IMG/VR virus record: IMGVR_UViG_3300009111_000006
Strand: one strand, 5' to 3'
Length of the DNA stretch: 57,871 bases
From: a virus
Under the pieces are notes generated by a model. The model was not told where the DNA came from, did no database searches, and saw nothing but the letters and a program-made list of their open reading frames with translations. Position 1 is the stretch's first letter. Each line of letters begins with the position of its first letter. The position numbers were made by a program, and so were the translations under genes. Below, one piece after another: positions 44,250-57,871 of the stretch.

Positions 44250-44993
44250 ATGCAGTGCCAGGCGTATGTGCGCAACTGCCGTGAATGTGGATACCACGAT
44301 GATCATCGCGCCAATGGAAACTGCCCGCAGTGTTGTGCTGACAGGCGCTGTCGCGAGAACGCAGTGCCGGGATATAAATGGTGCGATCGGCACGGTGGGC
44401 CTGCGCCTGGAAGAAACTTCTACGGATTGGGAAGGCGTATGACAACCGGGTCGGGCAGTTCATTTCCGCTGACAAGGCTGGCATCGAAATATCGCCAGAT
44501 GATCCAGGATGGCCGCATACTTTCGAACCGGCACAGCTTGGAGATTGTACGCCATCGCATCGAGCAGTTGGCAGATCGCATCGATCTGAATGATGCGCCG
44601 GATAGGTTTGCGGTTCTCTCCAAGCTATGGAAGGAATACACAAAGAAGATTGACGAGAAGCAGCCGCTCGAAGCCCATGCCGTTCGCCTGCAAATCGATG
44701 AGCAGTTCGAAGCTGCCTATCACGATTACGCAGCCTGGAAACAGATGTTCGAAGCGCTTGACCTGGACAGGAAGATGGTCGAGAGCGAAGTGAAAGTAGC
44801 CAAGGAAATTCAGGCAATTATGACCGCCGAGGAAGCATACGAGTTTGCGGCCAAGTTGCTGGGAGCGATAATGAATGTTGTTACAGACGCAGGGCAACTC
44901 CGCAGAATCCAATACGAGTTTACGCGACTTATTGGCGAAAAGCCTGAGCAGCGGGCTGGGTCAGGCGGCGGAGAAGTTATCGAAGTCGAATGA
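44250..44993 (+). CDS. Putative small terminase subunit with an N-terminal Cys-rich zinc finger
   Basis: Called only from its position directly upstream of the large terminase. Confidence 0.4.
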   Translation: MQCQAYVRNCRECGYHDDHRANGNCPQCCADRRCRENAVPGYKWCDRHGGPAPGRNFYGLGRRMTTGSGSSFPLTRLASKYRQMIQDGRILSNRHSLEIVRHRIEQLADRIDLNDAPDRFAVLSKLWKEYTKKIDEKQPLEAHAVRLQIDEQFEAAYHDYAAWKQMFEALDLDRKMVESEVKVAKEIQAIMTAEEAYEFAAKLLGAIMNVVTDAGQLRRIQYEFTRLIGEKPEQRAGSGGGEVIEVE

Positions 44994-47439
44994 TCCGGCG
45001 AGCTGGATAGAAGACAACTTCTACATCCCGGAGACCCGCAACGATCCCGATCTGCGCGGGTTGATGCGTTTGCAGGACTACCAGCGGGACGCGATCCGGG
45101 AAGCATTGTCCAAAGATGAAAATGGGCTGTATAAGTACTCGATCATCGTCTGGTCCGACATCAAAAAATCTGCCAAGTCGTCAATCGCCGCAGCGGTTGT
45201 GCAATATGGTCTCGAACATACGGAATGGGGCGAATACTACATCATTGCCAACGATCTCAAGCAGGCTGACTCGCGTGTGGCGCATTACCTGAGAAGGTCG
45301 ATCCAGTTGAACGCGGACAAGTCCACGAAGTATTCCACGCGTGGATACAAGATAACTTCGCAGAACGGCTCTTTCGCCGAAGCGATCCCGATTGATCCAA
45401 GCGGAGAGGCCGGATCGAACGCGGATGGAATTTTCTTCTCCGAATTGTGGGGGGCGAACGAAGAGCAGAAACACATCATGTGGTGTCTCGATCAGGACAG
45501 TGACGTTTTGACCCGGAAGGGCTGGAAAAAAGGCGTAGAACTTACGCGCCTCGATGAAGTAGCTGTCTACAATTATGGAAAGATTGAGTGGGAACATCCG
45601 CGTTCTGTTTTTATCGAGCATTACACTGGCAAGATGCACTTATACGAGCATAAAAACTTTAGTCTGATGTGTACTCCCGATCATCGGCTTTATGGACGAT
45701 ATTCTTATGCTGGAATGAAGTCAGGGCGATATGACACATTCGGAGTGATGCGATCCAACGTTCTGCGAGAAAGTGGATACGGATATTACCATCCGGTTTT
45801 GACTGCCGATCCGGTTGCGGGCGAAATCGACATTCCGAAATATATTTACATCGCAAAAACAAAATTCAAGCCGGAGAAATATATCCCGTGGGACAAGTGG
45901 GCTTCGTTCATGGGGTTATATCTCACCGAGGGCAGCACAGATACTTTCCGTGGGGTTCCTTGCCATGTGAAAATTTCTCAATTGCGGGAACCCCATCCAC
46001 AAAGGTATGACCGAATTCGCGAAATCCTGGAAGATGTTTTTGGCGATTGGCTAAATGTAAACAAACGTGACGGATTTTCAATTGGAAGCACAGAGCTTGC
46101 CAAGATTACAAAAAAGTTTGGAACGACATGGCAGAAACGCATTCCGAGGACGATCATTGAAAGCCCGCCGGATGTACTCGAAAAATTCCTGGAAGGATTT
46201 TGGCTTGGAGATGGAAGCAATCCAATCAAGTCTGGAACGAAAACTTATTGCTGTGCAAGCGAGGGACTCGCAGACGATTTGCAAGAAATCTTATTTAGAC
46301 TTGGATACCGATCGTCGAAACGCCCCCATGAAAAATATTGGAGAGTGAGCCAGATACTTGGATCGTTTGATGTTTCTGTCAGCAAAAAATCCTGGCAGGA
46401 AGTCGATTACTCCGGGAAAGTCTGGTGCCCGGTTGTCTCTACAGGATTGTTTATTGCAAGAAGGGAAGGCAGACCATTCGTGACCGGTAACAGTGAAATG
46501 ACGCTTTCGCCGACAAAATACGGAAAGTCCTTCCGTTGGGTGGAGTCGTATGCCGGGTTCATCGAAGAGTCGAAACTTCTGTACAGCCTGTACGAAACTG
46601 GCGTTAAACGTGGACAGCTTCTCTGGCCGGACAGGTTATATCCTGTAACTGGCGGCGCACCGGCACCGTTGGAACTGTATGTCAACCGGGATGCCCGTAT
46701 GTTGTGCCTGTGGAATACACAACCTCGCTGCCCATGGCAAACACCGGAGTATTACCAGTCAGAATCGCAGGTTTTGCTGCCTAATCAGTTTGCTCGTATG
46801 CACCGCAACCAGTGGGTGGCGAGCGAGGAAGTTTTCGTGCCGGTCGAGTGGTATGACGCTTGTTTCCATGGATCCCAGGATTGGCCAACGTATGACCATA
46901 AAAAGCATCCGATGATTATCGCCCTGGATGCTGGTGTTTCCTCGGATAACTTCGGTCTCTGGATGGGATGCAGGCACCCTGCATCATCGAAGGATGTGCT
47001 GACACAGTATGTCCAGCGCTGGAAGCCGCCGATCGGTGGAAAGATAGACTTCCAGGGCACCGTTGAAAATCCGGGCCCGGAGCGTGTTTTGCGACAACTT
47101 GTAAAAGAGTATAATGTAATAGAAATTGCCTACGATCCGTACCAGCTTCATGACATGGCAACCAGGCTCAAGCAGGAAGGACTTGCGTGGTTTCGACCGT
47201 TTGGTCAGGGCAACGAGCGCTTGCTTGCCGACAGCCAGTATCGGGCACTTATTAGAGATCGCAGGTTTTGGCACCGCGGCGAACCCGAGATGCGCGAGCA
47301 TGTTATGAACGCCAATGCCAGCGTGGATGAAAAGAACGACAATAAATTGCGCATCGTGAAGCGGAACGAAAGTAGCAAAATAGACCTGTGCATCACGGCC
47401 AGCATGGGTTCGTATGAAATCTTACGACTAAACCTGTGA
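44875..47439 (+). CDS. terL: Terminase large subunit interrupted by an intein (518-aa extein)
   Basis: Position before the portal gene. Terminase-like N- and C-terminal regions. The only in-frame ATG is at 44875, which gives a 119-nt overlap with the upstream gene. Confidence 0.75.
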   Translation: MLLQTQGNSAESNTSLRDLLAKSLSSGLGQAAEKLSKSNDPASWIEDNFYIPETRNDPDLRGLMRLQDYQRDAIREALSKDENGLYKYSIIVWSDIKKSAKSSIAAAVVQYGLEHTEWGEYYIIANDLKQADSRVAHYLRRSIQLNADKSTKYSTRGYKITSQNGSFAEAIPIDPSGEAGSNADGIFFSELWGANEEQKHIMWCLDQDSDVLTRKGWKKGVELTRLDEVAVYNYGKIEWEHPRSVFIEHYTGKMHLYEHKNFSLMCTPDHRLYGRYSYAGMKSGRYDTFGVMRSNVLRESGYGYYHPVLTADPVAGEIDIPKYIYIAKTKFKPEKYIPWDKWASFMGLYLTEGSTDTFRGVPCHVKISQLREPHPQRYDRIREILEDVFGDWLNVNKRDGFSIGSTELAKITKKFGTTWQKRIPRTIIESPPDVLEKFLEGFWLGDGSNPIKSGTKTYCCASEGLADDLQEILFRLGYRSSKRPHEKYWRVSQILGSFDVSVSKKSWQEVDYSGKVWCPVVSTGLFIARREGRPFVTGNSEMTLSPTKYGKSFRWVESYAGFIEESKLLYSLYETGVKRGQLLWPDRLYPVTGGAPAPLELYVNRDARMLCLWNTQPRCPWQTPEYYQSESQVLLPNQFARMHRNQWVASEEVFVPVEWYDACFHGSQDWPTYDHKKHPMIIALDAGVSSDNFGLWMGCRHPASSKDVLTQYVQRWKPPIGGKIDFQGTVENPGPERVLRQLVKEYNVIEIAYDPYQLHDMATRLKQEGLAWFRPFGQGNERLLADSQYRALIRDRRFWHRGEPEMREHVMNANASVDEKNDNKLRIVKRNESSKIDLCITASMGSYEILRLNL
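45484..46491 (+). mobile_element. Intein (336 aa) with a LAGLIDADG homing endonuclease
   Basis: Starts at Cys (W|CLDQDSDVLT). Block B TPDH. LYLTEGST and FLEGFWLGDGS. Ends ...FVTGN|S. Confidence 0.8.
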
Positions 47440-47445
47440 GGAAGC

Positions 47446-47733
47446 GTGAAGGATAACGAACTGCAAGATGCGATCTTTGAAGAGATCGCCAGGAGAACGC
47501 CATTCTCTTATCGCGAAATAAATTACGCGTACAGAATACTTGCAAGCATTGATAGGGTTATCGAGGCGACCGAACACGCAATAACTTTCGGCTCGTCTTT
47601 GGGATATGCCGTTTATCAACTAAACATGAAAGGGAAGCCAGATGAAACGCAATCCGCAGTTCCGGCCAGAGTACACCGTAAGAGAAGAATTGCCAAAAGT
47701 ATCCGACCAGAAGCTGATGTGCCCGTTTTGTGA
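47446..47733 (+). CDS. Hypothetical protein (GTG start)
   Basis: GAGGAAG RBS. It overlaps the next ORF by 92 nt. Confidence 0.4.
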   Translation: MKDNELQDAIFEEIARRTPFSYREINYAYRILASIDRVIEATEHAITFGSSLGYAVYQLNMKGKPDETQSAVPARVHRKRRIAKSIRPEADVPVL

Positions 47734-48106
47734 TATTCCGCACGAACTGTCGCCGACCGAAGCAGCAAAATGCGGAACGATCATCCGGGTGACAGCCGTT
47801 CAGACTGTGGTGCCGAAGCGCACCGTGCGCGACAAGAAACTGACTTGCCTGAAATGCAAGAAGGGCGACGGCGAGATGGTTGTTTATGGCAACAGTTACA
47901 TCCACCTCGTTGACTGTATGCCCGAGATAAAAATGCTTTCGGCTGAACCAAAGTACAGCAGGCTGGCAAAGTTTGTTCATGATCTGCCAGCCTGGATGAA
48001 AAAACGCATCGAGAAGAAAACCGGCATTGCCAAAAAGGTTTTGGATGTCGATCAGACAGGCCACGAGACTGGCAAGGTAGCCGGATACTTTTTCTACAAG
48101 CCGTAA
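47642..48106 (+). CDS. Zinc-ribbon protein (154 aa)
   Basis: CPFC...CLKC. AAGGGAAG RBS. Confidence 0.5.
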   Translation: MKRNPQFRPEYTVREELPKVSDQKLMCPFCDIPHELSPTEAAKCGTIIRVTAVQTVVPKRTVRDKKLTCLKCKKGDGEMVVYGNSYIHLVDCMPEIKMLSAEPKYSRLAKFVHDLPAWMKKRIEKKTGIAKKVLDVDQTGHETGKVAGYFFYKP

Positions 48107-48258
48107 TGTGCCCAGAAGCGAACCTTATCCTCACGCGATATATGTTTTCAGCACTCATGTATGCCGTTGGAAAAGGCACATTACGACAAATTTATAGAAT
48201 AAAGCGACAACTCGAAACACATAGATTGTTTTGTTGCAACTGCAAGATGCTGAAATAA

Positions 48259-48296
48259 AGTCACGGTGCTGATGCTGGGGCACCAGCACTGTGACT
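48259..48296 (+). other. Strong 16-bp hairpin 16 nt upstream of the portal start
   Basis: AGTCACGGTGCTG.TGC-tggg-GCA.CAGCACTGTGACT. Confidence 0.6.
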
Positions 48297-48312
48297 AACC
48301 GGAAGGACTAAC

Positions 48313-49812
48313 ATGCCAAACGTTCCGCAGCTAGTTCCAGAAACGCAATTTCCAACAGATGCAGTTCGTGAAAGCGTACAGGTATCGCCTGCACCTACCA
48401 TCTTACCGACAACCGGTTGGTTGACGATGGATATTGCATCAGCCGCAGATGAAATTACTCCGTGGGGACGCGCCCCAGCATTCAGGGACAGGCAACTGCG
48501 TGACTTTTGGCCGAATGAACCTTACCTGGCTGGCGCAATGTCGAATGTCAGTTTCAGGAATGCGTCATTCCTGTGGGAAATTCAGGGTCCTGACAAGATC
48601 GCCCAGGCCGTTACTGAGATGTTGCTCAATTCCATTGCGAATGACACGATTGGCTGGATACCGTTCATCGAGACGTTCTCGCAGGACCTGTATGCGCAGG
48701 ATAACGGTGCTTTCCAGGAAATTATTCGCGATCCTGGCATGGATGCCAACAGCCCATTCAAGAATGAGCGCGCCCCGGTTATTGGGCTGGCTAATCTCGA
48801 CTCAAATCTTTGCACGCGAACTGGTAATCCAGAATTTCCCATAATTTACACAGACGAGAATGGAAAATTCCACAAGATGCCCTGGTACAGCGTGATCCCA
48901 TTCTCGGATTACGCGTCGTCCATTCGTTCCATGCACGGCATTGGCTACTGTGCCGTAACCAGGGCGTTGAAATTATCACAGTACATCCGTTCTATAATCC
49001 TTTACAAGACAGAAAAGGTTGCTGGTCGCCATTACAAGCAGATGCACTTTGTCTCAGGCGTAAGTAAACAGGAACTAAAGGATGAAATGCAGCGAGGTCA
49101 GGAGGATGCGAACAATGCCGGAATGATACGCTACATCATGCCTGCTATCCTGGCGTCCCTTGACCCGGAGAAGCCTGTTTCAACGGCGACAATTGACCTT
49201 GCCAGCTTGCCGGATGGATTTGACTTCGATCAGGAAATGAAGTGGTATATCGCAGGACTGGCGCTGGACTTCGGCGTGGACTACCAGGAGTTTGCGCCCC
49301 TGCCAGGTGGGAACATAGGTTCAAGCCAGCAATCGATGATCCTGGATCGCAAATCGAGCGGGAAAGGCCCAGCTTCGTTCATGCTCAAGCTGGCGCAGGC
49401 GTATAAGTCTTATGGAGTTTTGCCGCGAAACTGCAAGATGGCTTTCCAGGACAAGGATGAGCAGGAAGCGCTGGAACGCCAAACCGTGCGCACGAAAGCC
49501 GCTGAAGAATATGCAATCCTAGCGCGTTCTGGAATTCTATCTCCCGATGCGATCCGGCAGGATGCCGTCAAGCGCAACATCTATGACAAAGCATTGATCG
49601 ATACCATGGACAAGGATTATGGCATCGACATTCTCTCTCGGAATAAATCAGCAATTGGACAGACTGGCGGGAACACACTGGCCGAAGATGCGGCCCGACA
49701 GACTACAGGGAACATAAGCGAGACATCTGGTGCGCAGTTACGCAAAGAAAAGCAGGGCTTTATTAGTGAATTGGTTTCCAAGTTGAAGCCATCCCGAGGC
49801 GTGCATGGCTAG
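48313..49812 (+). CDS. Portal protein
   Basis: 499 aa, lying between the terminase and the protease/capsid genes. GGAAGGA RBS. Confidence 0.75.
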   Translation: MPNVPQLVPETQFPTDAVRESVQVSPAPTILPTTGWLTMDIASAADEITPWGRAPAFRDRQLRDFWPNEPYLAGAMSNVSFRNASFLWEIQGPDKIAQAVTEMLLNSIANDTIGWIPFIETFSQDLYAQDNGAFQEIIRDPGMDANSPFKNERAPVIGLANLDSNLCTRTGNPEFPIIYTDENGKFHKMPWYSVIPFSDYASSIRSMHGIGYCAVTRALKLSQYIRSIILYKTEKVAGRHYKQMHFVSGVSKQELKDEMQRGQEDANNAGMIRYIMPAILASLDPEKPVSTATIDLASLPDGFDFDQEMKWYIAGLALDFGVDYQEFAPLPGGNIGSSQQSMILDRKSSGKGPASFMLKLAQAYKSYGVLPRNCKMAFQDKDEQEALERQTVRTKAAEEYAILARSGILSPDAIRQDAVKRNIYDKALIDTMDKDYGIDILSRNKSAIGQTGGNTLAEDAARQTTGNISETSGAQLRKEKQGFISELVSKLKPSRGVHG

Positions 49813-50299
49813 AATCAGCGTCAACATCCGTATGCCAAAGAAGATCGTGGATGCAAACGATTATCTTGACGCATTGGAAAGGGCGCAAAGGCTGATTGTT
49901 TCGAAAGACCTCGTGAAGCTCTTCGAGGAAACCGTTGAAGGTTGGGAGCATAAACCTGACTTCGTAACCAAGTTGAACGTAAGCAGCGGAACAATCAGTG
50001 TGACCGTTCGCGCCAGCGGGCAGTACGGAAGTCAATATGCGCTCGTTTCAAAAGGCTCTCCGTCGCACACGATCGTCCCAAGCACACAACCTTATCTTAG
50101 GTTTCAGCGTGGCTACCGTGCTGCCACAAAGGTTGGAGTTCTCAGGAGTGGTCCAAAGTCCAGGTTCGGAAACTACGTCTCTGCGTTGGGTGTAAATCAT
50201 CCTGGTTTTGAACCAAGAGACTTCCCAAAACTCATCAAAGAAGAATACAGCAGGCAATTTACGGAAGAAATGCAAGGCGCGATCAATAATGTCAAGTGA
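49805..50299 (+). CDS. Head-module protein of unknown function (164 aa)
   Basis: Its start overlaps the portal stop. Confidence 0.5.
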   Translation: MARISVNIRMPKKIVDANDYLDALERAQRLIVSKDLVKLFEETVEGWEHKPDFVTKLNVSSGTISVTVRASGQYGSQYALVSKGSPSHTIVPSTQPYLRFQRGYRAATKVGVLRSGPKSRFGNYVSALGVNHPGFEPRDFPKLIKEEYSRQFTEEMQGAINNVK

Positions 50300-50333
50300 C
50301 AAATGTCATATATATTCCATCTCATGCTATAAT
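50296..50333 (+). promoter_or_regulatory. RTGAC-N4-GTCAY box 18 nt upstream of the extended -10 TGcTATAAT
   Basis: Box at 50296..50309. TATAAT at 50328..50333. Confidence 0.5.
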
Positions 50334-50352
50334 TTTAGTAAGCGAGGTTGCT

Positions 50353-52065
50353 ATGGCAAATAGGCAGCAAAAAGAAGATCGGCGTCGGGCTATTCGCTTG
50401 ATGCAGGAAGAAAAGAAAAAGGAAAAGCTGGTCGAGAAGGAAATCCAGCCGCTCGACTATCTTGATCTTCCAGCAGAAGAACCGCAGGAAGTTGCCGAGA
50501 AGGAAATGGGAGAAGATGTATTCCCACTTCCCGGCCCGACATCCTGGGAAGAACTTGAAGCTGCAAAGATGGCCATGGAAAAAGCCCACGAACTGCGCGA
50601 AGCTGGGTGGAATGTTCAAGACCTCGTCTACAATATCGTTCGACATCCGATAATGGGCGCAAAAGAAAAAGCGTCCGCTATCCAGGCCGTTGGCACCGGG
50701 TTCGGAGAACGCGTTGATAAAATTATGTCGGATGATGGTGAGTACGAAGAAAAAGACCTTGACTTGCTTTCTGTACAGGCCGTTATAGCCCATGACGGAC
50801 GAAAAATTTCACTGGTAGAAAAAGCGCTTGATTATATCGAGAAGAAGAAGCTGACCACCAAGGTGGAGAACGCGCTTTCGGACGAACAATTTGCCCTGGT
50901 GCGCGAAGTCGATGGCAAGAAAGAACGCAAGTATCCCATTCACGACAAGGCGCATGTGCGCAATGCCCTGGCGCGAGCTGCACAGATGATTTCTGCGGGC
51001 GGGGATGCCGCCGCGGATGCAAAAGCGGCGTTGCCGAAAATCCGCGCTGCGGCAAAGCGCATGGGCATCGAAGTCTCGATGGAAAAAGATCGCAATGCCA
51101 TCCTGGTGGAAAAAGATGCCAGCGGGAACTGGCGCTGGGTTGGCTGGGTATCCAACAACTTCATCGATTGGGATGGAGATATTTTCAGCGAAAGCGCTCA
51201 CAAGGAATATGTTTCCTGGGTCAACGAGAATATGGATGTTGCCCCGGTATCAATGTCCTGGCATACTCCCGGTACGGTTCGGGAGAATCCGGTTGATTTT
51301 GTGACCTACGAGAACGGTTTCCTGATCATGAGCGGGAAACTCACCGAGAAAGAAGCTGCGGCTATTCTTACGGTTCAGAAAAGCGTTGAACTCGGGATGT
51401 CGCATGGAACATTTATTTTTGGACGCGATCCAAAGGATCCGCGTATTGTAACGAAATATAGAATGTATGAATCTTCGGATTTGCCAACCAATAACGCGGC
51501 GAATCCGTTTACTGACTTTGAAACAGTCACGAAGGAGGCTGGTATGGATAAGTTGCAATATCTCGCCGCGATCTTGGGAGACGAAAAGAAAGCCAAGGCT
51601 TTCCTCGAAAAGACCGGCCAAAAGCAGAAGGATTTGCAGGATGCAGGCATTGAAAGCAAGGGTAAAGACGAAGTTCCCACAGAACCTGTCGCTGCCGTTG
51701 TTCCCGAACCTATCGCCCCTGCCGTCCCGCAGGATGAGCACATCATGAAGATGGTCGAGAAGGTTCTCAAGGAAACGTACAAAATCGATGACCTGAACGC
51801 ATGGGTTTCCCAAGCGAACGAAGCCATCGAGAAGGTGCCTGTCCTGGAAGACCTGGTCAAAAATCTTTCGACAGCGACGGATGAAAAGGTGGCGGAGTTG
51901 CTGACCCCGCCAGCCGCAAGCCTGGCCTGGGCGATGAAGAGTCGCGCCAGTCAGTCCGACAAAACCGTCGCAGAACCGGAAGATGAAATCGTAAAAAGCA
52001 AGCCTGGCGTTCCGGGCGAATACTGGCTTTCGGATGCCACCGGCACCGTTCCAGTAAAACAGTAG
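50353..52065 (+). CDS. Prohead serine protease (HK97/S78-like) fused to scaffold-like regions
   Basis: WVSNNFIDWDGDIFSESAH...MSWHTPG...ELGMSHGTF. Charged coiled-coil N- and C-terminal regions. Confidence 0.65.
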   Translation: MANRQQKEDRRRAIRLMQEEKKKEKLVEKEIQPLDYLDLPAEEPQEVAEKEMGEDVFPLPGPTSWEELEAAKMAMEKAHELREAGWNVQDLVYNIVRHPIMGAKEKASAIQAVGTGFGERVDKIMSDDGEYEEKDLDLLSVQAVIAHDGRKISLVEKALDYIEKKKLTTKVENALSDEQFALVREVDGKKERKYPIHDKAHVRNALARAAQMISAGGDAAADAKAALPKIRAAAKRMGIEVSMEKDRNAILVEKDASGNWRWVGWVSNNFIDWDGDIFSESAHKEYVSWVNENMDVAPVSMSWHTPGTVRENPVDFVTYENGFLIMSGKLTEKEAAAILTVQKSVELGMSHGTFIFGRDPKDPRIVTKYRMYESSDLPTNNAANPFTDFETVTKEAGMDKLQYLAAILGDEKKAKAFLEKTGQKQKDLQDAGIESKGKDEVPTEPVAAVVPEPIAPAVPQDEHIMKMVEKVLKETYKIDDLNAWVSQANEAIEKVPVLEDLVKNLSTATDEKVAELLTPPAASLAWAMKSRASQSDKTVAEPEDEIVKSKPGVPGEYWLSDATGTVPVKQ

Positions 52066-52078
52066 CAGGAGGTGAATT

Positions 52079-53596
52079 ATGGGTTCCGCATATCTTGACC
52101 CGACGACCGATCCCAATAATGTCGTAAAGGCATTTATGGATTTGCTCGTCCAGAATGTTCAAAAGTCCACCGGTAATCCGGTTGGGCCTTACGTCCATGG
52201 GCCTGGCGGCTTGTTCGGCGTGCGTGGTCTCAAACGTGAGATTATCTCCACTCACACGCAGTTTACTGGCACGCTCGGGGAAAGCATTCCCATGGGTGCG
52301 ACCGGCGCTGGCCGTGATGGACAGACCAACGAAATTATGCCGTTGTTCCCGTACATTACGGGCTTCCTGCGTTCCGATCAGCAGGAAAAGAACGGCGTCT
52401 GCGATACTCCCGTTGAAGCTGCGCCGTTCAAGACCTGTATCCAGACCACTGTGTTTGGGCGCAAGGAATTCAAGACCCGCGAACTGGAAGTCAACCACGT
52501 TGGACAGGTGATCAACCGTGGCGAGTTCATGGACTTGCAGATCGTCAACGGCCCATTGGTTGAACAGATGGGCGGGCTGATGAGTGGGTTCTTTGGGCTG
52601 CAAAATCAGCAGGGTATCCTGGCTGGTCGCGAGATGCTGATGCGCTTCGTGGAAATTGGCGTGGCGTTCCAGCGATGGTTCTGCCCGACTGTTTACACCG
52701 GAAATCCGGCGAACAACAGTGCTGGCGGCGGCTACAAGGAATTCCCCGGCCTGGACTTGCTGATCAGCAAGACGAAGGTGGATGCCCTGACTGGTCAGGC
52801 GTGCCCATCGCTGTACAGCGACATCAAGGACTTTGGCTATCGCCAGGTTTCCAGCACAACTGACCCGGACATCGTTCGCACGATCACAACCATGATGCGG
52901 ATCCTGATCCGTAAGGCCGAACAGCAAGGCCTCGCCCCGGTCGATATTCGCATTGTAATGCGCGAACCCTTGTTCTATGAGTTGACCCGCGTGTGGCCGT
53001 GCCAGTACAATACCGATGGCTGCGCCGTTGGGCAGTCGCTGACGCAGGAAGTCAACATGAACGATGCCGTGCTTTTCCGTGACCGGATGCGCAATGGCAA
53101 GTACCTGCTTATCGACGGTCGCCAGGTGCCTGTGATCCTGGATGACTGCATCGACGAAGACAACCACAACGACAACGGTGCCATTCCGATCGGCGGATTC
53201 GCCAGCGACATCTACTTCGTGCCGTTCACGGCGCGTGGTGGCACCCTGCGCACCCTGTATTGGGAATACTACGACTACGGCAAAGATGTCCTACCTGCCA
53301 TTCGTGACGGTCGCTTCGGGCAGTTCTTCTGGTCTGACAACGGCGTGTTCCTGTGGGGCATCAAGCCGCCGACCAACTGGTGTATTGATGCGATCGCGAA
53401 GGTCGAGCCGCGCATCATTCTGCGCACCCCGCAGTTGGCTGGTCGTTTGACCAATGTGGTCTATGTGCCGCTTCAGCACACTGATGACCCGCTGCCCAGC
53501 CAGCCGTACTTCGTCAATGGTGGTGTTGTTTCTGGTCGCCCGGCACCCAGCCCATTTAGTGAATGGAATCTGTCTGGACCTGGTTTCAATAACTAA
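52079..53596 (+). CDS. Major capsid protein
   Basis: AGGAGGTGA RBS. 505 aa directly after the protease/scaffold gene, followed by a strong terminator. Confidence 0.7.
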   Translation: MGSAYLDPTTDPNNVVKAFMDLLVQNVQKSTGNPVGPYVHGPGGLFGVRGLKREIISTHTQFTGTLGESIPMGATGAGRDGQTNEIMPLFPYITGFLRSDQQEKNGVCDTPVEAAPFKTCIQTTVFGRKEFKTRELEVNHVGQVINRGEFMDLQIVNGPLVEQMGGLMSGFFGLQNQQGILAGREMLMRFVEIGVAFQRWFCPTVYTGNPANNSAGGGYKEFPGLDLLISKTKVDALTGQACPSLYSDIKDFGYRQVSSTTDPDIVRTITTMMRILIRKAEQQGLAPVDIRIVMREPLFYELTRVWPCQYNTDGCAVGQSLTQEVNMNDAVLFRDRMRNGKYLLIDGRQVPVILDDCIDEDNHNDNGAIPIGGFASDIYFVPFTARGGTLRTLYWEYYDYGKDVLPAIRDGRFGQFFWSDNGVFLWGIKPPTNWCIDAIAKVEPRIILRTPQLAGRLTNVVYVPLQHTDDPLPSQPYFVNGGVVSGRPAPSPFSEWNLSGPGFNN

Positions 53597-53617
53597 CCAA
53601 TCCTATCCGAACAAGGT

Positions 53618-53650
53618 GGGAGTGCGAGAAATCGCACTCCCATTTCTCTT
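53618..53650 (+). terminator. Intrinsic terminator after the capsid gene
   Basis: GGGAGTGCGA-gaaa-TCGCACTCCC-ATTTCTCTT. Confidence 0.75.
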
Positions 53651-53660
53651 GACTTTGGGT

Positions 53661-53750
53661 ATATAATGGATTTCAGAAGAGATAGTGCGTTCTGGCCGGA
53701 CGCATGATAAGCCGCAGCTTCCCCGGTTTCCCTTCTGAAATCCATTATGT
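53661..53750 (+). ncRNA. Long-stem structured element (16 to 19 bp closing helix around a 52-nt core)
   Basis: TAATGGATTTCAGAAG (53664..53679) is perfectly complementary to CTTCTGAAATCCATTA (53732..53747). There is an inner TGCGT/ACGCA stem. Confidence 0.5.
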
Positions 53751-53786
53751 ATCCAAGGGAAGAAATTGAATAAACAGGAGGAAGCA

Positions 53787-54734
53787 ATGCTTGAAGGTAA
53801 GATTCTCATTACGGGTGGTGCAGGCACGCTTGGACGCGCAATTATCAAGCGCTCCACTGAAGATAAATGGCCCTGCCAAATTACAATCTTTTCGACCGAT
53901 GCAATCAAGCACGCTTTTGTGCGCGAGCAGTATCCGCATGTTCAATCGGTCATTGGCGACATCCGCTCTTATGATGCCGTCTACAATGCCATGGCGGGCA
54001 AGGACATCGTCATTCATGGCGCAGCGGTAAAACATATCCCGGTCAGTGAGTACAATTCAATCGATACCTACGAAATCAACGTGGAAGGTTCGCGCAATGT
54101 TTGTATGGCGGCGATCCAGCATCACACTCCCCACGTTCTGGGTATCTCGACTGATAAAGCCTGTCATCCCGCAAATGCCTATGGCGCGACCAAGATGCTG
54201 ATGGAGAAGATTTTCCAGGAATATGCACGCCTGGGTTTCTCTACTCAGTTCCATCTGGTTCGTTATGGCAACGTGCTGGAGAGCACCGGCTCTGTTATTC
54301 AAGTTTGGAAGAAAGCCATCGAGGATCACCAACCGATCAAAATGACCGACCCAGAAATGACTCGTTTCTGGCTTTCTCCAGACCAGGCGGTTACGCTGGT
54401 GCTGAAATCACTTGAATTGCAGAGTGGGCATATCTATGTCGCGAAAATGCCAGCTCTGAGTATAAGAAGACTGGCAGAGTATGGACTTGGGCTTGAAACG
54501 TTGGAGGAGATGTCGGTTGAAATTATTCCGCTTCGACCTGGAGAAAAAACGCACGAGGAACTCTTGACCGTTGAAGAGTGTCCATACGCCACTGAGTACA
54601 GAGATCATTATGACTTACGACCAAGCACAGATGTTCGTTACTTGCCCCACTGCGCTGCACATAAATACTCCAGCGATGAACCTGACCGAGAGCTAAGAAT
54701 GAAAGAATTACAGGAGATGCTTGACAATGGCTAA
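53787..54734 (+). CDS. PseB/CapD-type nucleotide-sugar 4,6-dehydratase
   Basis: ILITGGAGTLG, HGAAVKHIPVSEYN, ISTDKACHPANAYGATKMLMEK, VRYGNVLESTGSVI, MTRFWL. Confidence 0.85.
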   Translation: MLEGKILITGGAGTLGRAIIKRSTEDKWPCQITIFSTDAIKHAFVREQYPHVQSVIGDIRSYDAVYNAMAGKDIVIHGAAVKHIPVSEYNSIDTYEINVEGSRNVCMAAIQHHTPHVLGISTDKACHPANAYGATKMLMEKIFQEYARLGFSTQFHLVRYGNVLESTGSVIQVWKKAIEDHQPIKMTDPEMTRFWLSPDQAVTLVLKSLELQSGHIYVAKMPALSIRRLAEYGLGLETLEEMSVEIIPLRPGEKTHEELLTVEECPYATEYRDHYDLRPSTDVRYLPHCAAHKYSSDEPDRELRMKELQEMLDNG

Positions 54735-54999
54735 ACTATCTGGAACGGCAACGATCAGTGTCAATATATCCTTAGTCTTGCCAGAAGGCGAAGCGAGAGC
54801 GCTTTTAGCCATTGCAACATACGATTCGCAAGAATTCTTGCGCATCTATAAAGAGAAAATGGGAAGTAGACTCGATGGAAGAGAAAAAGACCTTTCATCA
54901 TTATTTGCGAGTATTCGTCTTCTACTTCCTCCAGTTATAAAAAATATCGACGACGCAAGGAGTTCTTTTTCTGGCGAAACGGATAACTGCAATGGATAA
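54727..54999 (+). CDS. Hypothetical protein (90 aa) within the sugar operon
   Basis: ATG overlaps the upstream stop (ATGGCTAA). Confidence 0.45.
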   Translation: MAKLSGTATISVNISLVLPEGEARALLAIATYDSQEFLRIYKEKMGSRLDGREKDLSSLFASIRLLLPPVIKNIDDARSSFSGETDNCNG

Positions 55000-55004
55000 C
55001 TGCA

Positions 55005-55685
55005 ATGGATAACCTGCCTCGTCTCGCGATTGCGATGGTGACATATAGGCGAACCGAAGAAGCACTGCGAACCATCCGAGGCGTATCGGAAAACCTTGTA
55101 TACCCAAAAGAATTGATTGGCTGGTTCGTTGGCGATGATGGCTCTGACAAGGCTCACTCCAATGCCTTGATACAAGAGATTGTGCGCGCGAGCGATGGCA
55201 GGCTGGTCGATTATCACAATGAGCGCTTTACTCCCATGACTGGTAAGGGCTGGAATCGCGTACTCGGGATGGGATACCAATATTCCGATTTTGTCCTGTG
55301 GCTGGAAGATGACTGGGAACTCACAAAGCCATTTTTTATCGAACCATACATTCGTATGCTGATGGATCGCGAAGATGTTGGGCTGGTTCGTCTTGGGCAC
55401 CTGGCAGTTGGTTCTGATGTTCACATTGTCGGTCACAGTGGCGTGCATTACCTGAAATACCAGAAAACAACTCAGTATGCTTACAGCGGCAATCCACAAA
55501 TCCGCCATGCCCGCTACGTGAAATATTACGGCTGGTATGCGGAAAACAAAAATCCAGGCGAAATAGAGCTGGATTACGATGCACGCTTTCGCGCCAGCCC
55601 TGACGGCCCGGAAATATGGCGACCGGCTGACATTCCCGGCTGGGGTGTGTTTGGGCACATTGGAACGGAGAAATCGTATGAATGA
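55005..55685 (+). CDS. GT-A fold glycosyltransferase (GT2-like)
   Basis: LAIAMVTYRRTEEAL...GDDGSD...WLEDDWEL. Confidence 0.65.
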   Translation: MDNLPRLAIAMVTYRRTEEALRTIRGVSENLVYPKELIGWFVGDDGSDKAHSNALIQEIVRASDGRLVDYHNERFTPMTGKGWNRVLGMGYQYSDFVLWLEDDWELTKPFFIEPYIRMLMDREDVGLVRLGHLAVGSDVHIVGHSGVHYLKYQKTTQYAYSGNPQIRHARYVKYYGWYAENKNPGEIELDYDARFRASPDGPEIWRPADIPGWGVFGHIGTEKSYE

Positions 55686-56262
55686 CACCTACGATGGAAT
55701 TTCGGCAGAACAATGGCAAAAAGAACTTAGCGGGCAGAGCGATTGGAACGCACGTCACTTGATGATTGCATTCGCTACGCTTGGACTTCCAAAAACTTTT
55801 CTCGATGTTGGTTGTGGCGATGGAACAATGGTCAACGTAGCCCGACACCTGGGTGTGCTCTCATATGGAGTAGACCAGCTTATCGATGACCAGTGGGACA
55901 AAACGGCTTTCTCGCACCACAACCTCGTTGACCGGTATGTTCACCCATACCAATGCGAACTTGTCCTGTGCCTGGAAGTTGCAGAACATCTTCATCCATC
56001 GGCTCACGCAACCCTTTGCGACACACTTGTCGGGAACTTGAAAGAAGGTCGTGGAAACTACCTTATCTTCTCTGCGGCGCTCCCCAACCAGGGCGGAATC
56101 GGACACGTAGCAGAGAGACCCCCGAAATACTGGATGGATCAGTTTGCGCTGCGAGGATTGAATTTCAGGCGTGACCTGACGATCAATCTTTCGTTACACT
56201 GGTCTAACATTGGCTCTCCGCTTACCTGGTTGGCGGCGAATGTTCAGGTCTGGGAGAAATAA
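55678..56262 (+). CDS. Class I SAM-dependent methyltransferase
   Basis: FLDVGCGDGTMV (motif I), LCLEVAEHL. Its start overlaps the upstream stop. Confidence 0.75.
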   Translation: MNDTYDGISAEQWQKELSGQSDWNARHLMIAFATLGLPKTFLDVGCGDGTMVNVARHLGVLSYGVDQLIDDQWDKTAFSHHNLVDRYVHPYQCELVLCLEVAEHLHPSAHATLCDTLVGNLKEGRGNYLIFSAALPNQGGIGHVAERPPKYWMDQFALRGLNFRRDLTINLSLHWSNIGSPLTWLAANVQVWEK

Positions 56263-56263
56263 C

Positions 56264-57247
56264 ATGATCATAACCAGGACACCTTTGAGAATATCCCTTG
56301 TAGGCGGCGGAACAGATTTTCCTGAGTTTTACAACCGTCATGGCGGCGCAGTTATCTCATTCGCGATCAGTAAGTATGTCTACATTTCGGTAAACGAAAA
56401 GTACGATGGAAAGACGCGAGTATCTTATTCGCATACCGAGACTGTGGAAGATGTGAGGCAGCTTGAACACAGTATCGCCAGGGAAACACTCGCTTTCTTT
56501 GAAGAAAAAGGGCTTGAAATCACATCGGTTGCCGATGTTCCCGGTACCGGCACCGGGCTGGGTTCATCAAGCGCGTATACGGTTGGTCTCATCAAAGCCC
56601 TTTCCGCCCGGAACGGTGAACGCTTTCCGCCAAAGATGTTGGCAGAAACGGCCTATACCGTAGAAGCAAAATTGTGTGGCCATGCGGTTGGAAAGCAAGA
56701 TCAATATGCAGCGGCTTATGGAGGAGTTCACTTCTTTGAATTCAAAAAGGACTACACCAGCGTAGAGCCTATCCCCATGAGCGATGGAAAAATCAAGTAC
56801 ATCGAAGATCGTATGCTCCTGTTCCATGTTGATCTTATTAGAAACGCTGACACCATTCTTTCAATGCAACAGGAACGTCTCGTCAGCGATTGCGATACTA
56901 TCAATGCTGCGAAGAAAATGACAACCATTGCCTATGAGTTGCGCGAAATGCTGCGTGACTATGGCGCAGATGTGTCATTCATAGGCGATGTTCTTCACAG
57001 GAACTGGGTTCAGAAAAAGAAACTCAGCAACGGCATATCGCATAAATACATCGATGATTTGTACATCGCAGGCCGGAATGCAGGCGCAGACGGCGGAAAA
57101 CTTTGCGGTGCCGGTGGTGGTGGCTTCATGCTCTTTTTTGCAGAACCGGACAAGCATGAAGCAATCCGCAGAGCAGTTGGATTGCGCCAGATGACTTTCA
57201 AGATTGAAAAAGAAGGGTGCAAGGTGATCTATGACTCAAAAGCCTAA
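56264..57247 (+). CDS. hddA: GHMP-family sugar kinase, HddA-like (heptose-7-phosphate kinase type)
   Basis: MIITRTPLRISLVGGGTDFPEFY, PGTGTGLGSSSA, KLCGAGGGGF. Confidence 0.75.
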   Translation: MIITRTPLRISLVGGGTDFPEFYNRHGGAVISFAISKYVYISVNEKYDGKTRVSYSHTETVEDVRQLEHSIARETLAFFEEKGLEITSVADVPGTGTGLGSSSAYTVGLIKALSARNGERFPPKMLAETAYTVEAKLCGHAVGKQDQYAAAYGGVHFFEFKKDYTSVEPIPMSDGKIKYIEDRMLLFHVDLIRNADTILSMQQERLVSDCDTINAAKKMTTIAYELREMLRDYGADVSFIGDVLHRNWVQKKKLSNGISHKYIDDLYIAGRNAGADGGKLCGAGGGGFMLFFAEPDKHEAIRRAVGLRQMTFKIEKEGCKVIYDSKA

Positions 57248-57662
57248 AATGCTTTTCTTGGACGATAGAACAAAGAGAATTCACTCAGCAATTAGAAAGT
57301 ATGGAAAAGAATACGATCTGACCATCGTTACAAATGTCAGGGAATTCTTGAGATACGTTGACAGGGAAAAGTATGACATTATCAGCATGGATCATGACTT
57401 GTGCGGGCTTGATTACATGAGCATAAACGATCCGCAATCTGGCATGGAAGCAATTAGATATATACTTGATACACATTCATCTACCATCATTGGAGGTTAT
57501 ATAAAACATGATTGCTTAGTCATAATTCATTCTTCTAACAATATGGCATCGGATGCTATGGTATCGGCATTACAGAGTGCTGGCTTGAACGTAAGGCGAC
57601 AAAGATTTGAGTATGACGGCCCAGAAAACAGCAATTTCTTGAGCAACGGAGTTTCAGAATGA
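57231..57662 (+). CDS. Receiver (CheY-fold)-like protein, resembling phage CPR-type receiver domains
   Basis: MLFLDD, DIISMDHDL and IIHSSN sit at the expected beta1/beta3/beta4 ends. AAGGTGA RBS. Confidence 0.55.
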   Translation: MTQKPKMLFLDDRTKRIHSAIRKYGKEYDLTIVTNVREFLRYVDREKYDIISMDHDLCGLDYMSINDPQSGMEAIRYILDTHSSTIIGGYIKHDCLVIIHSSNNMASDAMVSALQSAGLNVRRQRFEYDGPENSNFLSNGVSE

Positions 57663-57871
57663 GAACCGGACTTATTGCAGGCTCATTTGACATCATTCAC
57701 CCTGGCTACATCCGCTTATTTCAGGATGCAAAGCGCCATTGCGACTTCCTTATCGTCGCGTTGCACGTCGATCCAAGCGTAGAGCGAACAGGAAAAGAGA
57801 AACCTATTTTTTCTGTGGATGAGAGAAAGGAAATTCTTTCAGCGATCAAGTATATCGACCAGGTCGTGACC
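57659..57871 (+). CDS. Cytidylyltransferase-fold nucleotidyltransferase, N-terminal part (continues at 124..315 after the repeat)
   Basis: ATGA overlap with the upstream gene. MRTGLIAGSFDIIHPGYIRLF. Confidence 0.75.
   Translation, partial: MRTGLIAGSFDIIHPGYIRLFQDAKRHCDFLIVALHVDPSVERTGKEKPIFSVDERKEILSAIKYIDQVVT
57749..57871. repeat. Terminal direct repeat, copy 2
   Basis: Identical to 1..123. Confidence 0.95.

What the first reader, a model, noticed from the sequence alone, without database searches (positions are those of the whole stretch)
57231..57662. Receiver-fold protein sitting in the pathway slot where a GmhB phosphatase is expected
NDP-heptose synthesis needs a heptose-1,7-bisphosphate 7-phosphatase (GmhB, HAD family) between the kinase and nucleotidyltransferase steps. 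I found no HAD-like gene anywhere in the genome.

Exactly between the kinase (56264..57247) and the NTase (57659..) lies a 143-aa CheY-fold protein, translationally coupled to both. It carries the acidic pocket residues (LFLDD, SMDHD) and the HSS motif. Receiver and HAD enzymes share aspartyl-phosphate chemistry.

The gene order kinase - X - NTase mirrors the reaction order. So this may be a non-orthologous replacement for the phosphatase. This is an inference from synteny only.
Basis: inference. Interest (0 to 1): 0.65.

Follow-up and report, generated by a model that had tools for sequence, protein, structure and literature searches.

The report
Receiver-fold stand-in for heptose phosphatase GmhB
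A small phage protein with the fold of a bacterial signalling "receiver" sits where the sugar phosphatase GmhB belongs in a heptose pathway, and a sister phage has a true GmhB in that exact slot, so it is probably an unrelated enzyme doing the same job.

Summary
The ORF at 57231..57662 is real. It is a 143-aa receiver-fold protein of Pfam family cREC_REC (PF20274), a family predicted to be phosphoesterases and never assayed.

The window is a closed siphovirus-type phage genome. It encodes three of the four NDP-heptose enzymes:
- an HddA/WcbL-like GHMP kinase;
- an RfaE-domain-II-like nucleotidyltransferase (NTase).

No HAD phosphatase was found.

Twenty related phage contigs keep this cREC inside the same sugar cluster. 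In at least 41 protein clusters it is fused to the N-terminus of the NTase. In one sister phage (L334) with the same syntenic cluster, the slot between kinase and NTase holds a GmhB-type HAD phosphatase, also fused to the NTase N-terminus, and there is no cREC. HAD and cREC never co-occur in any locus examined. Profile comparison finds no homology between them.

Caveats:
- There is no biochemistry.
- Many phages with isomerase, kinase and NTase carry no phosphatase at all.
- N-terminal receiver fusions can also be regulatory.
- The gene order is not conserved across relatives.

The parts
57231..57662 (+). cREC-family receiver-fold protein (143 aa). Candidate heptose-bisphosphate 7-phosphatase, an analogue of GmhB. 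Key residues: D11 D12, R16, D54-H55-D56, H100-S101-S102-N103.
   Evidence: Pfam PF20274, 52 bits. AF2 plus Foldseek give a receiver fold. Motifs are invariant in 21 close homologues and across 168 family representatives. The same slot is filled by a GmhB HAD in L334.
56264..57247 (+). GHMP-family sugar kinase, closest to D-glycero-D-manno-heptose 7-phosphate 1-kinases (HddA/WcbL).
   Evidence: Pfam GHMP_kinases_N and _C. NCBIfam HddA 154 bits, below the equivalog cut-off of 600. Best PDB hits are WcbL/HddA at E 1e-38, against fucokinase at 1e-14.
57659..57871 (+). N-terminal part of the cytidylyltransferase-like sugar-phosphate nucleotidyltransferase. The gene runs over the contig junction.
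   Evidence: Pfam CTP_transf_like. phrog_7878 at 3e-22. 123-nt terminal repeat.
1..315 (+). C-terminal part of the same NTase. Bases 1..123 repeat 57749..57871. The full protein is 134 aa.
   Evidence: In-frame continuation. NCBIfam rfaE_dom_II 75 bits and TagD 64 bits, both below cut-off. It falls in the same BLAST cluster as the NTases of the phage SIS-HAD-kinase clusters.
43431..43955 (+). GmhA-like sedoheptulose-7-phosphate isomerase (SIS domain), 174 aa, located next to the terminase module.
   Evidence: Pfam SIS_2, 3e-17. NCBIfam phosphoheptose isomerase 83 bits and gmhA 77 bits, below equivalog cut-offs. Phage SIS profile 3e-59.
312..1232 (+). SDR nucleotide-sugar epimerase/dehydratase. 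In all relatives it lies immediately downstream of cREC, or of cREC plus NTase.
   Evidence: NCBIfam GalE 155, RmlB 153, heptose epimerase 106 bits. phrog_540. Synteny.
1208..4045 (+). 945-aa three-domain glycosyltransferase (GT4-like plus two GT2). Likely user of the activated sugars.
   Evidence: NCBIfam and PHROG glycosyltransferase hits. Precomputed Pfam on homologues. 55-64% identical across the divergent relatives, 89% in L001.
4042..4359 (+). DUF1360 small membrane protein that closes the cluster.
   Evidence: Pfam DUF1360 on the L001 homologue. phrog_781. Conserved position.
53766..54734 (+). PseB/FnlA-like UDP-GlcNAc 4,6-dehydratase, a second sugar branch of the cluster.
   Evidence: Pfam Polysacc_synt_2, 8e-72. 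NCBIfam PseB 237 bits.
55005..55685 (+). GT2-like glycosyltransferase.
   Evidence: Pfam Glycos_transf_2, 2.4e-6. Conserved in all relatives.
55678..56262 (+). SAM-dependent methyltransferase. The ORF opens at 55579. The start at 55678 is inferred from the 194-aa L001 homologue.
   Evidence: Pfam Methyltransf_23, 1.2e-6. L001 gene call.

Best explanation
The phage carries its own NDP-heptose pathway.

1. The GmhA-like isomerase (43431..43955) converts sedoheptulose 7-phosphate to D-glycero-D-manno-heptose 7-phosphate.
2. The HddA/WcbL-like GHMP kinase (56264..57247) phosphorylates O-1 to give heptose 1,7-bisphosphate.
3. The cREC protein (57231..57662) removes the 7-phosphate.
4. The RfaE-domain-II-like NTase (57659..315) makes NDP-heptose.
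5. The adjacent SDR enzyme and the glycosyltransferases then modify and transfer the sugar.

The cREC is a receiver-fold enzyme, not a signalling module. The inferred mechanism is as follows:
- D54, at the end of strand 3, attacks the phosphate to form an aspartyl-phosphate.
- D56 (position D+2) acts as the general acid/base, as in the DxD motif of HAD phosphatases.
- D11 and D12 hold a divalent cation.
- S101 and the invariant R16 bind phosphoryl oxygens.

Shown: the fold, the family membership, the conserved residues, the gene neighbourhood, the fusions, and the replacement by a true GmhB in a sister phage.

Inferred: the catalytic activity, the substrate and its anomer, and whether dephosphorylation comes before or after nucleotidyl transfer.
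For: **In-place displacement.** L334 (ENA ERZ869929 NODE_55, 56.7 kb) has the same cluster in the same order. Between the kinase and the SDR it carries one 300-aa ORF, P0231. Its N-terminal half is GmhB-type: NCBIfam NF006506 at 128.5 bits, E 1.9e-37, with motifs FLDRDGVIN, VTNQ, CxCRKP and GDSxxD. Its C-terminal half is the same NTase. L334-L336 contain no cREC.

**Fusions.**
- L013:5995-6795 and L176 encode cREC-NTase in one ORF.
- 9 of 10 long family representatives are such fusions.
- At least 41 clusters at 90% identity carry PF20274 plus PF01467.
- Other NTases of this family carry N-terminal HAD-like domains: P0230, P0256, P0214, and P0280 from a 6-Mb chromosome.

**Phyletic pattern.** Of 95 loci with the HddA-like kinase, 40 have HAD and no cREC, 27 have cREC and no HAD, and none has both. 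Every locus of the window's lineage that extends past the kinase has cREC or, in L334, HAD.

**Pathway context.** GmhA is present in the window and in at least four related cREC contigs. The kinase is closest to heptose-7-P kinases. The NTase clusters with those of phage loci that have the full set Tal-GmhA-GmhB-kinase-NTase.

**Active site.** DD, D-x-D, H[ST]xN and R16 are invariant or nearly so across 168 representatives. D54 and D56 stay invariant in the fusions, while the residue between them varies.

**No other phosphatase** was found in the genome.

**Background knowledge.** Receiver and HAD active sites superimpose, and HADs carry Asp at nucleophile+2. This is recalled, not tested here.
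Against: - No cREC protein has ever been assayed (PMC7824862, PMC9503650).
- 13 + 53 phage loci have isomerase, kinase and NTase but neither HAD nor cREC within 10 kb. A phage phosphatase is therefore dispensable, and an empty slot need not be filled.
- In 12 of the 20 cREC contigs no NTase was found in the fetched flanks. Four complete-length relatives gave no GmhA hit. There the kinase-cREC pair would depend on host enzymes or act on something else.
- An N-terminal receiver fused to an enzyme is also the standard layout of a regulated response regulator.
- The canonical active-site Lys is not conserved.
- All cREC-heptose cases come from one phage lineage, so conservation of the link is partly inheritance. 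Only the HAD swap and the repeated fusions are independent events.
- Kinase, NTase and GmhA all score below NCBIfam equivalog cut-offs, so the sugar could be a heptose relative.
Confidence: 0.6

Rival explanations
1. Regulatory (pseudo-)receiver. The domain is not a sugar phosphatase. It is an allosteric switch that controls the NTase or the kinase. It could be phosphorylated on D54 by a small phosphodonor, perhaps heptose 1,7-bisphosphate itself, or it could simply bind a sugar phosphate. The host supplies the phosphatase.
For: - REC-N-terminal/enzyme-C-terminal is the classic response-regulator layout, and the fusions have this order.
- The fold is receiver-like, and DD, D and S/T are kept.
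- Many phages manage without their own phosphatase.
Against: - A true catalytic GmhB domain occupies the identical slot and the identical fusion position in L334. A regulator and an enzyme would not be expected to be interchangeable.
- No histidine kinase is present in the genome.
- The canonical Lys is not conserved.
- D+2 is an invariant Asp, which is the HAD catalytic signature.
- The free-standing form persists in relatives where no NTase is nearby.
Confidence: 0.15
2. The protein is a phosphoesterase of the same pathway but catalyses a different reaction. Options are removal of the 7-phosphate after nucleotidyl transfer (from NDP-heptose 7-phosphate), opening of a cyclic sugar phosphate, or acting as a phosphomutase through its aspartyl-phosphate.
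For: - The family was predicted to open cyclic phosphates on ribose of ADPr or RNA, meaning nucleotide-linked sugar phosphates.
- Fusion to the NTase fits action on either its substrate or its product.
- H55 and H100 are family-wide invariants, which suggests His-based chemistry in the wider family.
Against: - The L334 domain that replaces it is closest to GmhB, whose substrate is heptose 1,7-bisphosphate.
- H55 is not conserved in the heptose-linked fusions (H/F/Y/A/N), whereas D54 and D56 are.
- A kinase that already makes the 1-phosphate leaves no need for a mutase.
Confidence: 0.12
3. The protein has the role proposed for the cREC family in general. It would process RNA 2',3'-cyclic ends or ADP-ribose-derived phosphates as an RNA-repair or counter-defence enzyme, and it merely resides inside the sugar cluster.
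For: The published neighbourhood analyses place cREC only in NAD/ADPr and RNA-repair contexts (PMC7824862, PMC9503650). The family active-site motifs are retained.
Against: - Pfam scans of about 50 window ORFs found no RNA ligase, KptA, sirtuin, Nudix, Macro or 2H gene.
- The gene is translationally coupled to the kinase and the NTase.
- It is fused to the NTase in at least 41 protein clusters.
- It is replaced by GmhB in L334.
Confidence: 0.05

Closest known systems
cREC_REC (Pfam PF20274), the 'cyclic-phosphate processing receiver' domain of Iyer, Burroughs, Aravind and co-workers (Viruses 2021, PMC7824862; Viruses 2022, PMC9503650)
   Same: - HMM match above the gathering score.
- Same motif set (LFLDD, R, LDHDL, H[ST]xN) and receiver-like fold.
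- Phage-borne, with no histidine kinase partner.
- Predicted to be an enzyme acting on phosphoesters.
   Different: - The published contexts are NAD/ADPr processing and RNA repair only. Here the context is a nucleotide-sugar (heptose) cluster with recurrent fusion to a sugar-phosphate NTase.
- The implied reaction is a phosphomonoester hydrolysis, not opening of a cyclic phosphate.
- Subfamily-specific residues are R13, T14, D61 and S102. The D+1 His is relaxed in the fusions.
GmhB, D-glycero-D-manno-heptose 1,7-bisphosphate 7-phosphatase (HAD superfamily, subfamily IIIA)
   Same: - Same place in the pathway.
- Same genomic slot and same fusion partner in a sister phage (L334).
- Probably the same aspartyl-phosphate chemistry, with an Asp-x-Asp pair and acidic metal ligands.
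   Different: - No detectable sequence homology (hhalign probability 0.7%; no HAD Pfam hit).
- The nucleophile sits after strand 3 of a (beta-alpha)5 receiver fold, not after strand 1 of a HAD Rossmannoid fold.
- There is no cap, no Zn loop and no conserved Lys.
Canonical two-component receiver domains (CheY, PF00072 Response_reg)
   Same: (beta-alpha)5 fold, with top structural matches at TM 0.55-0.6. An acidic pair after strand 1, an Asp after strand 3 and a Ser after strand 4.
   Different: - Scores below the Pfam cut-off (15 vs 30.2 bits).
- The conserved Lys after strand 5 is absent.
- D+2 is an invariant Asp.
- No kinase partner. A metabolic role is proposed instead of signalling.
HldE (kinase-NTase fusion) and the phage or bacterial HAD-NTase fusions such as P0231, P0230 and P0280
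   Same: Consecutive enzymes of NDP-heptose synthesis are fused to the RfaE-domain-II-type NTase. cREC-NTase has the same N-to-C order as HAD-NTase.
   Different: The fused partner is a receiver-fold domain. The kinase here is GHMP-type (HddA-like), not the PfkB-type of HldE.

Membership tests
cREC_REC (PF20274) | Match to the family HMM above the gathering score | tested here: met
   52.2 bits against a cut-off of 27, E 9.8e-14, covering profile positions 3-87 of 88. All 21 homologues carry PF20274.
cREC_REC (PF20274) | Family motif set: acidic pair after strand 1, D-H-D after strand 3, H-[ST]-x-N after strand 4 | tested here: met
   D11 D12, D54 H55 D56, H100 S101 N103. These are conserved in 168 representatives.
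cREC_REC (PF20274) | Receiver-like (beta-alpha)5 fold | tested here: met
   AF2 pLDDT 85 with strand/helix order b1a1b2a2b3a3b4a4b5. Foldseek PDB top 50 are all receivers. The BFVD top hit is a cREC protein, TM 0.67-0.75.
cREC_REC (PF20274) | Genomic association with NAD/ADPr-processing or RNA-repair genes, as the family was defined in the literature | tested here: not met
   The neighbours are a GHMP kinase, an NTase, SDR enzymes and glycosyltransferases. Pfam scans of about 50 ORFs found no ligase, KptA, sirtuin, Nudix or Macro gene.
cREC_REC (PF20274) | Phosphoesterase activity | not testable with these tools
   No member has been assayed according to PMC9503650. No later report was found.
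Canonical receiver domain (PF00072; quintet DD, D, T/S, K as defined in PMC12632262) | HMM match above the gathering score | tested here: not met
   15.1 bits against a cut-off of 30.2. The PDB profile search gives only E of 0.017 or worse to receivers.
Canonical receiver domain (PF00072; quintet DD, D, T/S, K as defined in PMC12632262) | Conserved Lys after strand 5 | tested here: not met
   The window has R125-F126. Across the family the position before the P/F is R, I, E, K and others. By the PMC12632262 definition this is a pseudo-receiver.
Canonical receiver domain (PF00072; quintet DD, D, T/S, K as defined in PMC12632262) | Acidic pair, phospho-acceptor Asp and Ser/Thr | tested here: met
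   D11/D12, D54 and S101 are invariant.
Canonical receiver domain (PF00072; quintet DD, D, T/S, K as defined in PMC12632262) | Cognate histidine kinase or Hpt partner | tested here: not met
   No HisKA/HATPase_c hit in any scanned ORF of the window or in the gene tables of related loci.
HAD superfamily / GmhB | Sequence homology to HAD (motifs I-IV in HAD order on a HAD fold) | tested here: not met
   No HAD Pfam or NCBIfam hit. hhalign of cREC against phage GmhB profiles gives probability 0.7%. The structural matches listed (top 50) are all receivers, none HAD.
HAD superfamily / GmhB | Same pathway position as GmhB (functional equivalence, not membership) | tested here: met
   Same slot and same fusion partner as the GmhB domain of P0231 in L334. 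Mutually exclusive with HAD in all loci.
HAD superfamily / GmhB | Heptose 1,7-bisphosphate 7-phosphatase activity | not testable with these tools
   Needs an enzyme assay.
NDP-heptose biosynthesis pathway (GmhA, kinase, phosphatase, NTase) | Sedoheptulose-7-P isomerase present | tested here: met
   43431..43955. SIS_2 at 3e-17. Best NCBIfam hits are phosphoheptose isomerase/GmhA at 77-83 bits, below equivalog cut-offs.
NDP-heptose biosynthesis pathway (GmhA, kinase, phosphatase, NTase) | Heptose-7-P anomeric kinase present | tested here: inconclusive
   Best hits are HddA (154 bits, cut-off 600) and WcbL/HddA structures at E 1e-38. The substrate and anomer are not established.
NDP-heptose biosynthesis pathway (GmhA, kinase, phosphatase, NTase) | Heptose-1-P nucleotidyltransferase present | tested here: inconclusive
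   rfaE_dom_II 75 bits (cut-off 181.5) and TagD 64 bits. It clusters with the NTases of phage GmhA-GmhB-kinase loci. The nucleotide used is unknown.

The most novel reading that the evidence does not exclude
The receiver fold has been recruited as a true metabolic phosphohydrolase. This cREC subfamily would be a small-molecule sugar-phosphate phosphatase that works through an aspartyl-phosphate with a HAD-like Asp-x-Asp pair. It would have displaced GmhB in a lineage of phages.

By extension, the whole uncharacterised cREC family (about 2,500 clusters at 50% identity) would be phosphomonoesterases acting on sugar or ribose phosphates. That differs from the cyclic-phosphate-opening enzymes or signalling modules proposed so far.
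Probability: 0.5. Interest if true: 0.8.

Novelty: new variant of a known kind. Interest (0 to 1): 0.7.

Why it matters
- **First testable substrate for the family.** cREC is a large phage-borne family that so far has only a computational prediction. This finding gives it a concrete reaction to test: heptose 1,7-bisphosphate to heptose 1-phosphate.
- **A case of convergence.** Two unrelated folds with superimposable aspartyl-phosphate sites (receiver and HAD) would be interchangeable in one gene slot.
- **A noted gap in viral pathways.** Commentary on Tang et al. 2024 states that the phosphatase step is absent from viral NDP-heptose pathways (PMC11461863). Here one phage lineage fills that step with cREC. 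Other lineages carry an ordinary GmhB, and others carry none.
- **Annotation.** JGI names the fusions 'glycerol-3-phosphate cytidylyltransferase', which is probably wrong. Free cREC genes in sugar clusters should not be read as signalling proteins.
- **Phage glycobiology.** NDP-heptoses are innate-immune agonists and glycan building blocks. The cluster sits directly after the head genes, so it is relevant to what these phages glycosylate.

Tried and rejected
- **blastn of the cluster against 50,697 GenBank phages:** no match. No annotated relative could be used.
- **PDB sequence search with the cREC profile:** only marginal receiver hits, E 0.017 or worse.
- **Single-protein scan for the GmhA-like gene in viral contigs:** nothing found. 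An alignment was needed.
- **Scan for the NTase, to ask whether NTase-less relatives carry it elsewhere:** The question stays open.
- **Genome-contig scan for the cREC subfamily:** one hit, a phage-like contig binned in an Anaerolineae MAG. No cellular context was available.
- **hhalign of cREC against phage GmhB:** no homology. 'Divergent HAD' is rejected.
- **'Gene order mirrors reaction order':** rejected as a general rule. L002 and L019 have NTase-kinase-cREC. In L011 and L013, DegT, HNH and an intein-bearing methylase lie between kinase and cREC.
- **NMN-adenylyltransferase reading of the NTase, which would suit the NAD contexts of cREC:** rejected. phrog NMNAT scores only E 0.0033, against 3e-22 for the heptose NTase, and the gene clusters with the NTases of GmhA/GmhB/kinase loci.
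- **The 505-aa protein upstream of the cluster:** I treated it as the major capsid protein by position only. It has no Pfam or PHROG hit, so 'capsid glycosylation' remains speculation.
- **Literature:** searches found no prior report that links a receiver domain to heptose synthesis.
Full report
**1. The observation**

The ORF at 57231..57662 (+) exists and encodes 143 aa. It overlaps the upstream GHMP kinase gene (56264..57247) by 17 nt. Its stop shares an ATGA with the start of the downstream nucleotidyltransferase (NTase) gene at 57659.

The window is a closed circular contig. Its first 123 bases repeat its last 123. The NTase therefore continues in frame at 124..315 and is 134 aa long. The sugar cluster runs on into 312..4359.

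**2. What the protein is**

- Pfam places it in cREC_REC (PF20274) at 52.2 bits against a cut-off of 27.
- The canonical Response_reg model reaches only 15 bits against a cut-off of 30.2.
- An AlphaFold2 model built on 21 homologues has pLDDT 85 and a (beta-alpha)5 order.
- The 50 best PDB matches are all receiver domains, with TM about 0.55-0.6.
- The best viral match is a protein annotated as cREC.

The 21 close homologues share invariant LFLDDRTxR, DHDLxGxD and HSxN. Across 168 family representatives, D11, D12, R16, D54, D56, H100, [ST]101 and N103 are invariant or nearly so. The receiver Lys after strand 5 is not conserved. By the definition in PMC12632262 this is formally a pseudo-receiver.

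The only literature on cREC consists of two comparative-genomics papers (PMC7824862 and PMC9503650). They predict a cyclic-phosphate phosphoesterase. They state that the domain is uncharacterised and that it occurs only in NAD/ADPr and RNA-repair contexts.

**3. The surrounding pathway**

- **Kinase.** It is closest to D-glycero-D-manno-heptose 7-phosphate kinases. NCBIfam HddA scores 154 bits, below the equivalog cut-off. WcbL/HddA structures score E 1e-38, against 1e-14 for fucokinase.
- **NTase.** It is cytidylyltransferase-like and closest to RfaE domain II (75 bits) and TagD (64 bits). phrog_7878 scores 3e-22.
- **Isomerase.** SIS_2 scores 3e-17, and the best NCBIfam hits are phosphoheptose isomerases.
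- **No phosphatase found.** Three of the four NDP-heptose enzymes are therefore phage-encoded. A profile of phage GmhB proteins finds nothing in any six-frame segment of the genome. Pfam on about 50 ORFs finds no HAD or other phosphatase.
- **Rest of the cluster.** It holds a PseB-like dehydratase, a GT2-like glycosyltransferase, a methyltransferase, an SDR epimerase/dehydratase, a 945-aa three-domain glycosyltransferase and a DUF1360 membrane protein.
- **The phage itself.** It is a siphovirus-type tailed phage, with tape-measure, Dit and Gp37-like proteins.

**4. Relatives**

The cREC subfamily was found in 20 distinct contigs. All belong to one phage lineage. The 505-aa head-module protein is 64-73% identical among them and the cluster is syntenic.

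Every such locus that extends past the kinase has the cREC. The order is not fixed:
- The window, L001, L184 and L186 have kinase-cREC-NTase.
- L002 and L019 have NTase-kinase-cREC.
- In L011 and L013, 3-5 kb of inserts lie between kinase and cREC. The inserts include a DegT aminotransferase, an HNH gene and an intein-bearing methylase.

The cREC is always directly upstream of the SDR gene, or of NTase plus SDR.

**5. Phage heptose clusters in general**

Eighty viral loci with an HddA-like kinase fall into three groups after local gene clustering:
- **Group A (about 40 loci).** NTase, GmhA, GmhB-type HAD, transaldolase, GT1 and kinase. The HAD, SIS and TAL identities were confirmed by Pfam.
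- **Group B (13 loci here, 53 more).** NTase, SDR, GT1, kinase and GmhA, with neither HAD nor cREC within 10 kb.
- **Group C.** The window's lineage, with cREC.

HAD and cREC never co-occur. Group B shows that a phage phosphatase is not obligatory. This matches the remark, in a commentary on Tang et al. 2024, that the phosphatase is absent from viral pathways (PMC11461863). Group A shows that the remark is not general.

**6. Fusions**

In L013/L175 and L176 the cREC and the NTase form one ORF.

A profile search of 1.8 billion representatives found 2,563 cREC clusters. Nine of the ten longest among the top 150 listed are cREC-NTase fusions. A search with the fusion profile lists at least 41 clusters at 90% identity that carry both domains. 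In the fusions D54 and D56 stay invariant, while the residue between them varies among H, F, Y, A and N.

**7. The decisive comparison**

The same search returned P0231, a 300-aa protein.
- Its C-terminal half is this NTase.
- Its N-terminal half is a GmhB-type HAD phosphatase. NCBIfam NF006506 scores 128.5 bits, E 1.9e-37, and the motifs FLDRDGVIN, VTNQ, CxCRKP and GDSxxD are present.

Its contig, L334 (56.7 kb), belongs to the window's lineage and has the same cluster in the same order. Identities to the window's proteins are:

| Protein | Identity |
|---|---|
| Upstream head-module protein (50296..52065, DUF6582; role unverified) | 53% |
| 505-aa head protein | 66% |
| Dehydratase | 53% |
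| GT2 | 53% |
| Kinase | 49% |
| NTase | 46% |
| SDR | 54% |
| Large glycosyltransferase | 63% |

The HAD-NTase gene lies between the kinase and the SDR, with the same overlapping starts and stops. No cREC is present in L334-L336.

Further NTases of this family carry small HAD-like N-terminal domains, including one on a 6-Mb bacterial chromosome (P0230, P0256, P0214, P0280).

Profile-profile comparison finds no relation between cREC and the phage GmhB proteins (probability 0.7%).

So one slot and one fusion position are filled either by a HAD phosphatase or by the cREC. This is a non-homologous displacement in place.

**8. Mechanism**

The best reading is that the cREC removes the 7-phosphate of heptose 1,7-bisphosphate. 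The alternative is that it acts on NDP-heptose 7-phosphate after nucleotidyl transfer.

The inferred chemistry uses D54 as the nucleophile, D56 as the acid/base, D11 and D12 as metal ligands, and S101 and R16 as phosphate ligands. This rests on the known superposition of receiver and HAD active sites and on the HAD Asp-x-Asp signature. Both are recalled knowledge, not tests made here.

**9. What weakens the case**

- There is no biochemistry for any cREC.
- Group B phages need no phosphatase of their own.
- 12 of the 20 cREC contigs show no NTase in the fetched flanks.
- Four full-length relatives gave no GmhA hit. The follow-up scan for the NTase saturated and was uninformative.
- The N-terminal receiver layout also fits a regulatory role.
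- All cREC-heptose cases share ancestry.
- The kinase, NTase and isomerase score below equivalog cut-offs, so the exact sugar and anomer are open.

**10. Verdict**

The protein is a member of a known, uncharacterised family. It appears here in a new context with a new, specific and testable activity. I file it as a new variant of a known kind.

Noticed in passing
window 1..123 and 57749..57871: There is an exact 123-nt terminal direct repeat, so the contig is a closed circle (or terminally redundant). The NTase gene and the sugar cluster run across the junction.
   Followed up: yes
window 43431..43955 (+): A GmhA-like SIS isomerase lies about 12 kb from the rest of the heptose genes, beside the terminase module. 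Homologues sit at a similar distance in at least four related contigs (L095, L096, L097, L101).
   Followed up: partly
window 44875..47439 (+): The large terminase (854 aa) is interrupted by an insertion that contains a LAGLIDADG domain (Pfam LAGLIDADG_3, residues 435-488). It looks like an intein. The splice junctions were not checked.
   Followed up: partly
L013:1960-4785 (same contig as L018 and L175): A 941-aa DNA methylase-like ORF with an apparent intein lies inside the sugar cluster, between kinase and cREC. HNH endonuclease genes are scattered in the clusters of several relatives. The cluster appears to be a hotspot for selfish elements.
   Followed up: no
L034, L045, L054 and about 37 other loci (group A): A different phage group carries a complete set: NTase, GmhA, GmhB-type HAD, transaldolase, GT1 and GHMP kinase. 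The transaldolase could supply sedoheptulose 7-P. This contradicts the statement that the phosphatase is absent from viral heptose pathways.
   Followed up: partly
L024, L030, L031, L033, L042-L044 and 53 loci of L177-L253 (group B): Many phage loci have GmhA, GHMP kinase, NTase, SDR and GT1 but no HAD and no cREC within 10 kb. What removes the 7-phosphate there is unknown. It could be a host GmhB or another unrecognised analogue.
   Followed up: no
P0004-P0016 C-termini; L011:5869-6534 and P0053 N-termini: Some cREC homologues carry a Cys-rich, zinc-ribbon-like extension. It is C-terminal (CxxC...CHxC...QC) in some and N-terminal (C..KHPGHM..CGxC) in others. The window's protein has neither.
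   Followed up: no
P0230, P0256, P0214, P0280: A short HAD-like domain (MIYCFDIDGTIC..., about 100 aa, weak hits to HAD-IIIA and to the capsule phosphatase EcbF/BcbF) is fused to the same NTase family. One case lies on a 6-Mb bacterial chromosome. It may be another unannotated phosphatase-NTase pair.
   Followed up: partly
window 52079..53596 (+) and 48313..49812 (+): The 505-aa protein just upstream of the sugar cluster is 64-73% identical across the lineage, and the 499-aa protein sits in the portal position. Neither has a Pfam or PHROG hit. Their head-protein roles are assumed from position only.
   Followed up: partly
window 25698..27314 (-), 28667..29902 (-), 36351..36947 (-): The genome carries two DNA methylases (N6/N4 type and C5 type). 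It also has an ORF with a weak, sub-threshold GGDEF match (E 0.002).
   Followed up: no
L014 (JASJYH010000067.1, Anaerolineae MAG): The only hit in 185,579 reference genomes is a 15-kb phage-like contig binned with an Anaerolineae MAG. If the host really is a Chloroflexota member without LPS heptose, the phage could not borrow a host GmhB. The binning was not verified.
   Followed up: no
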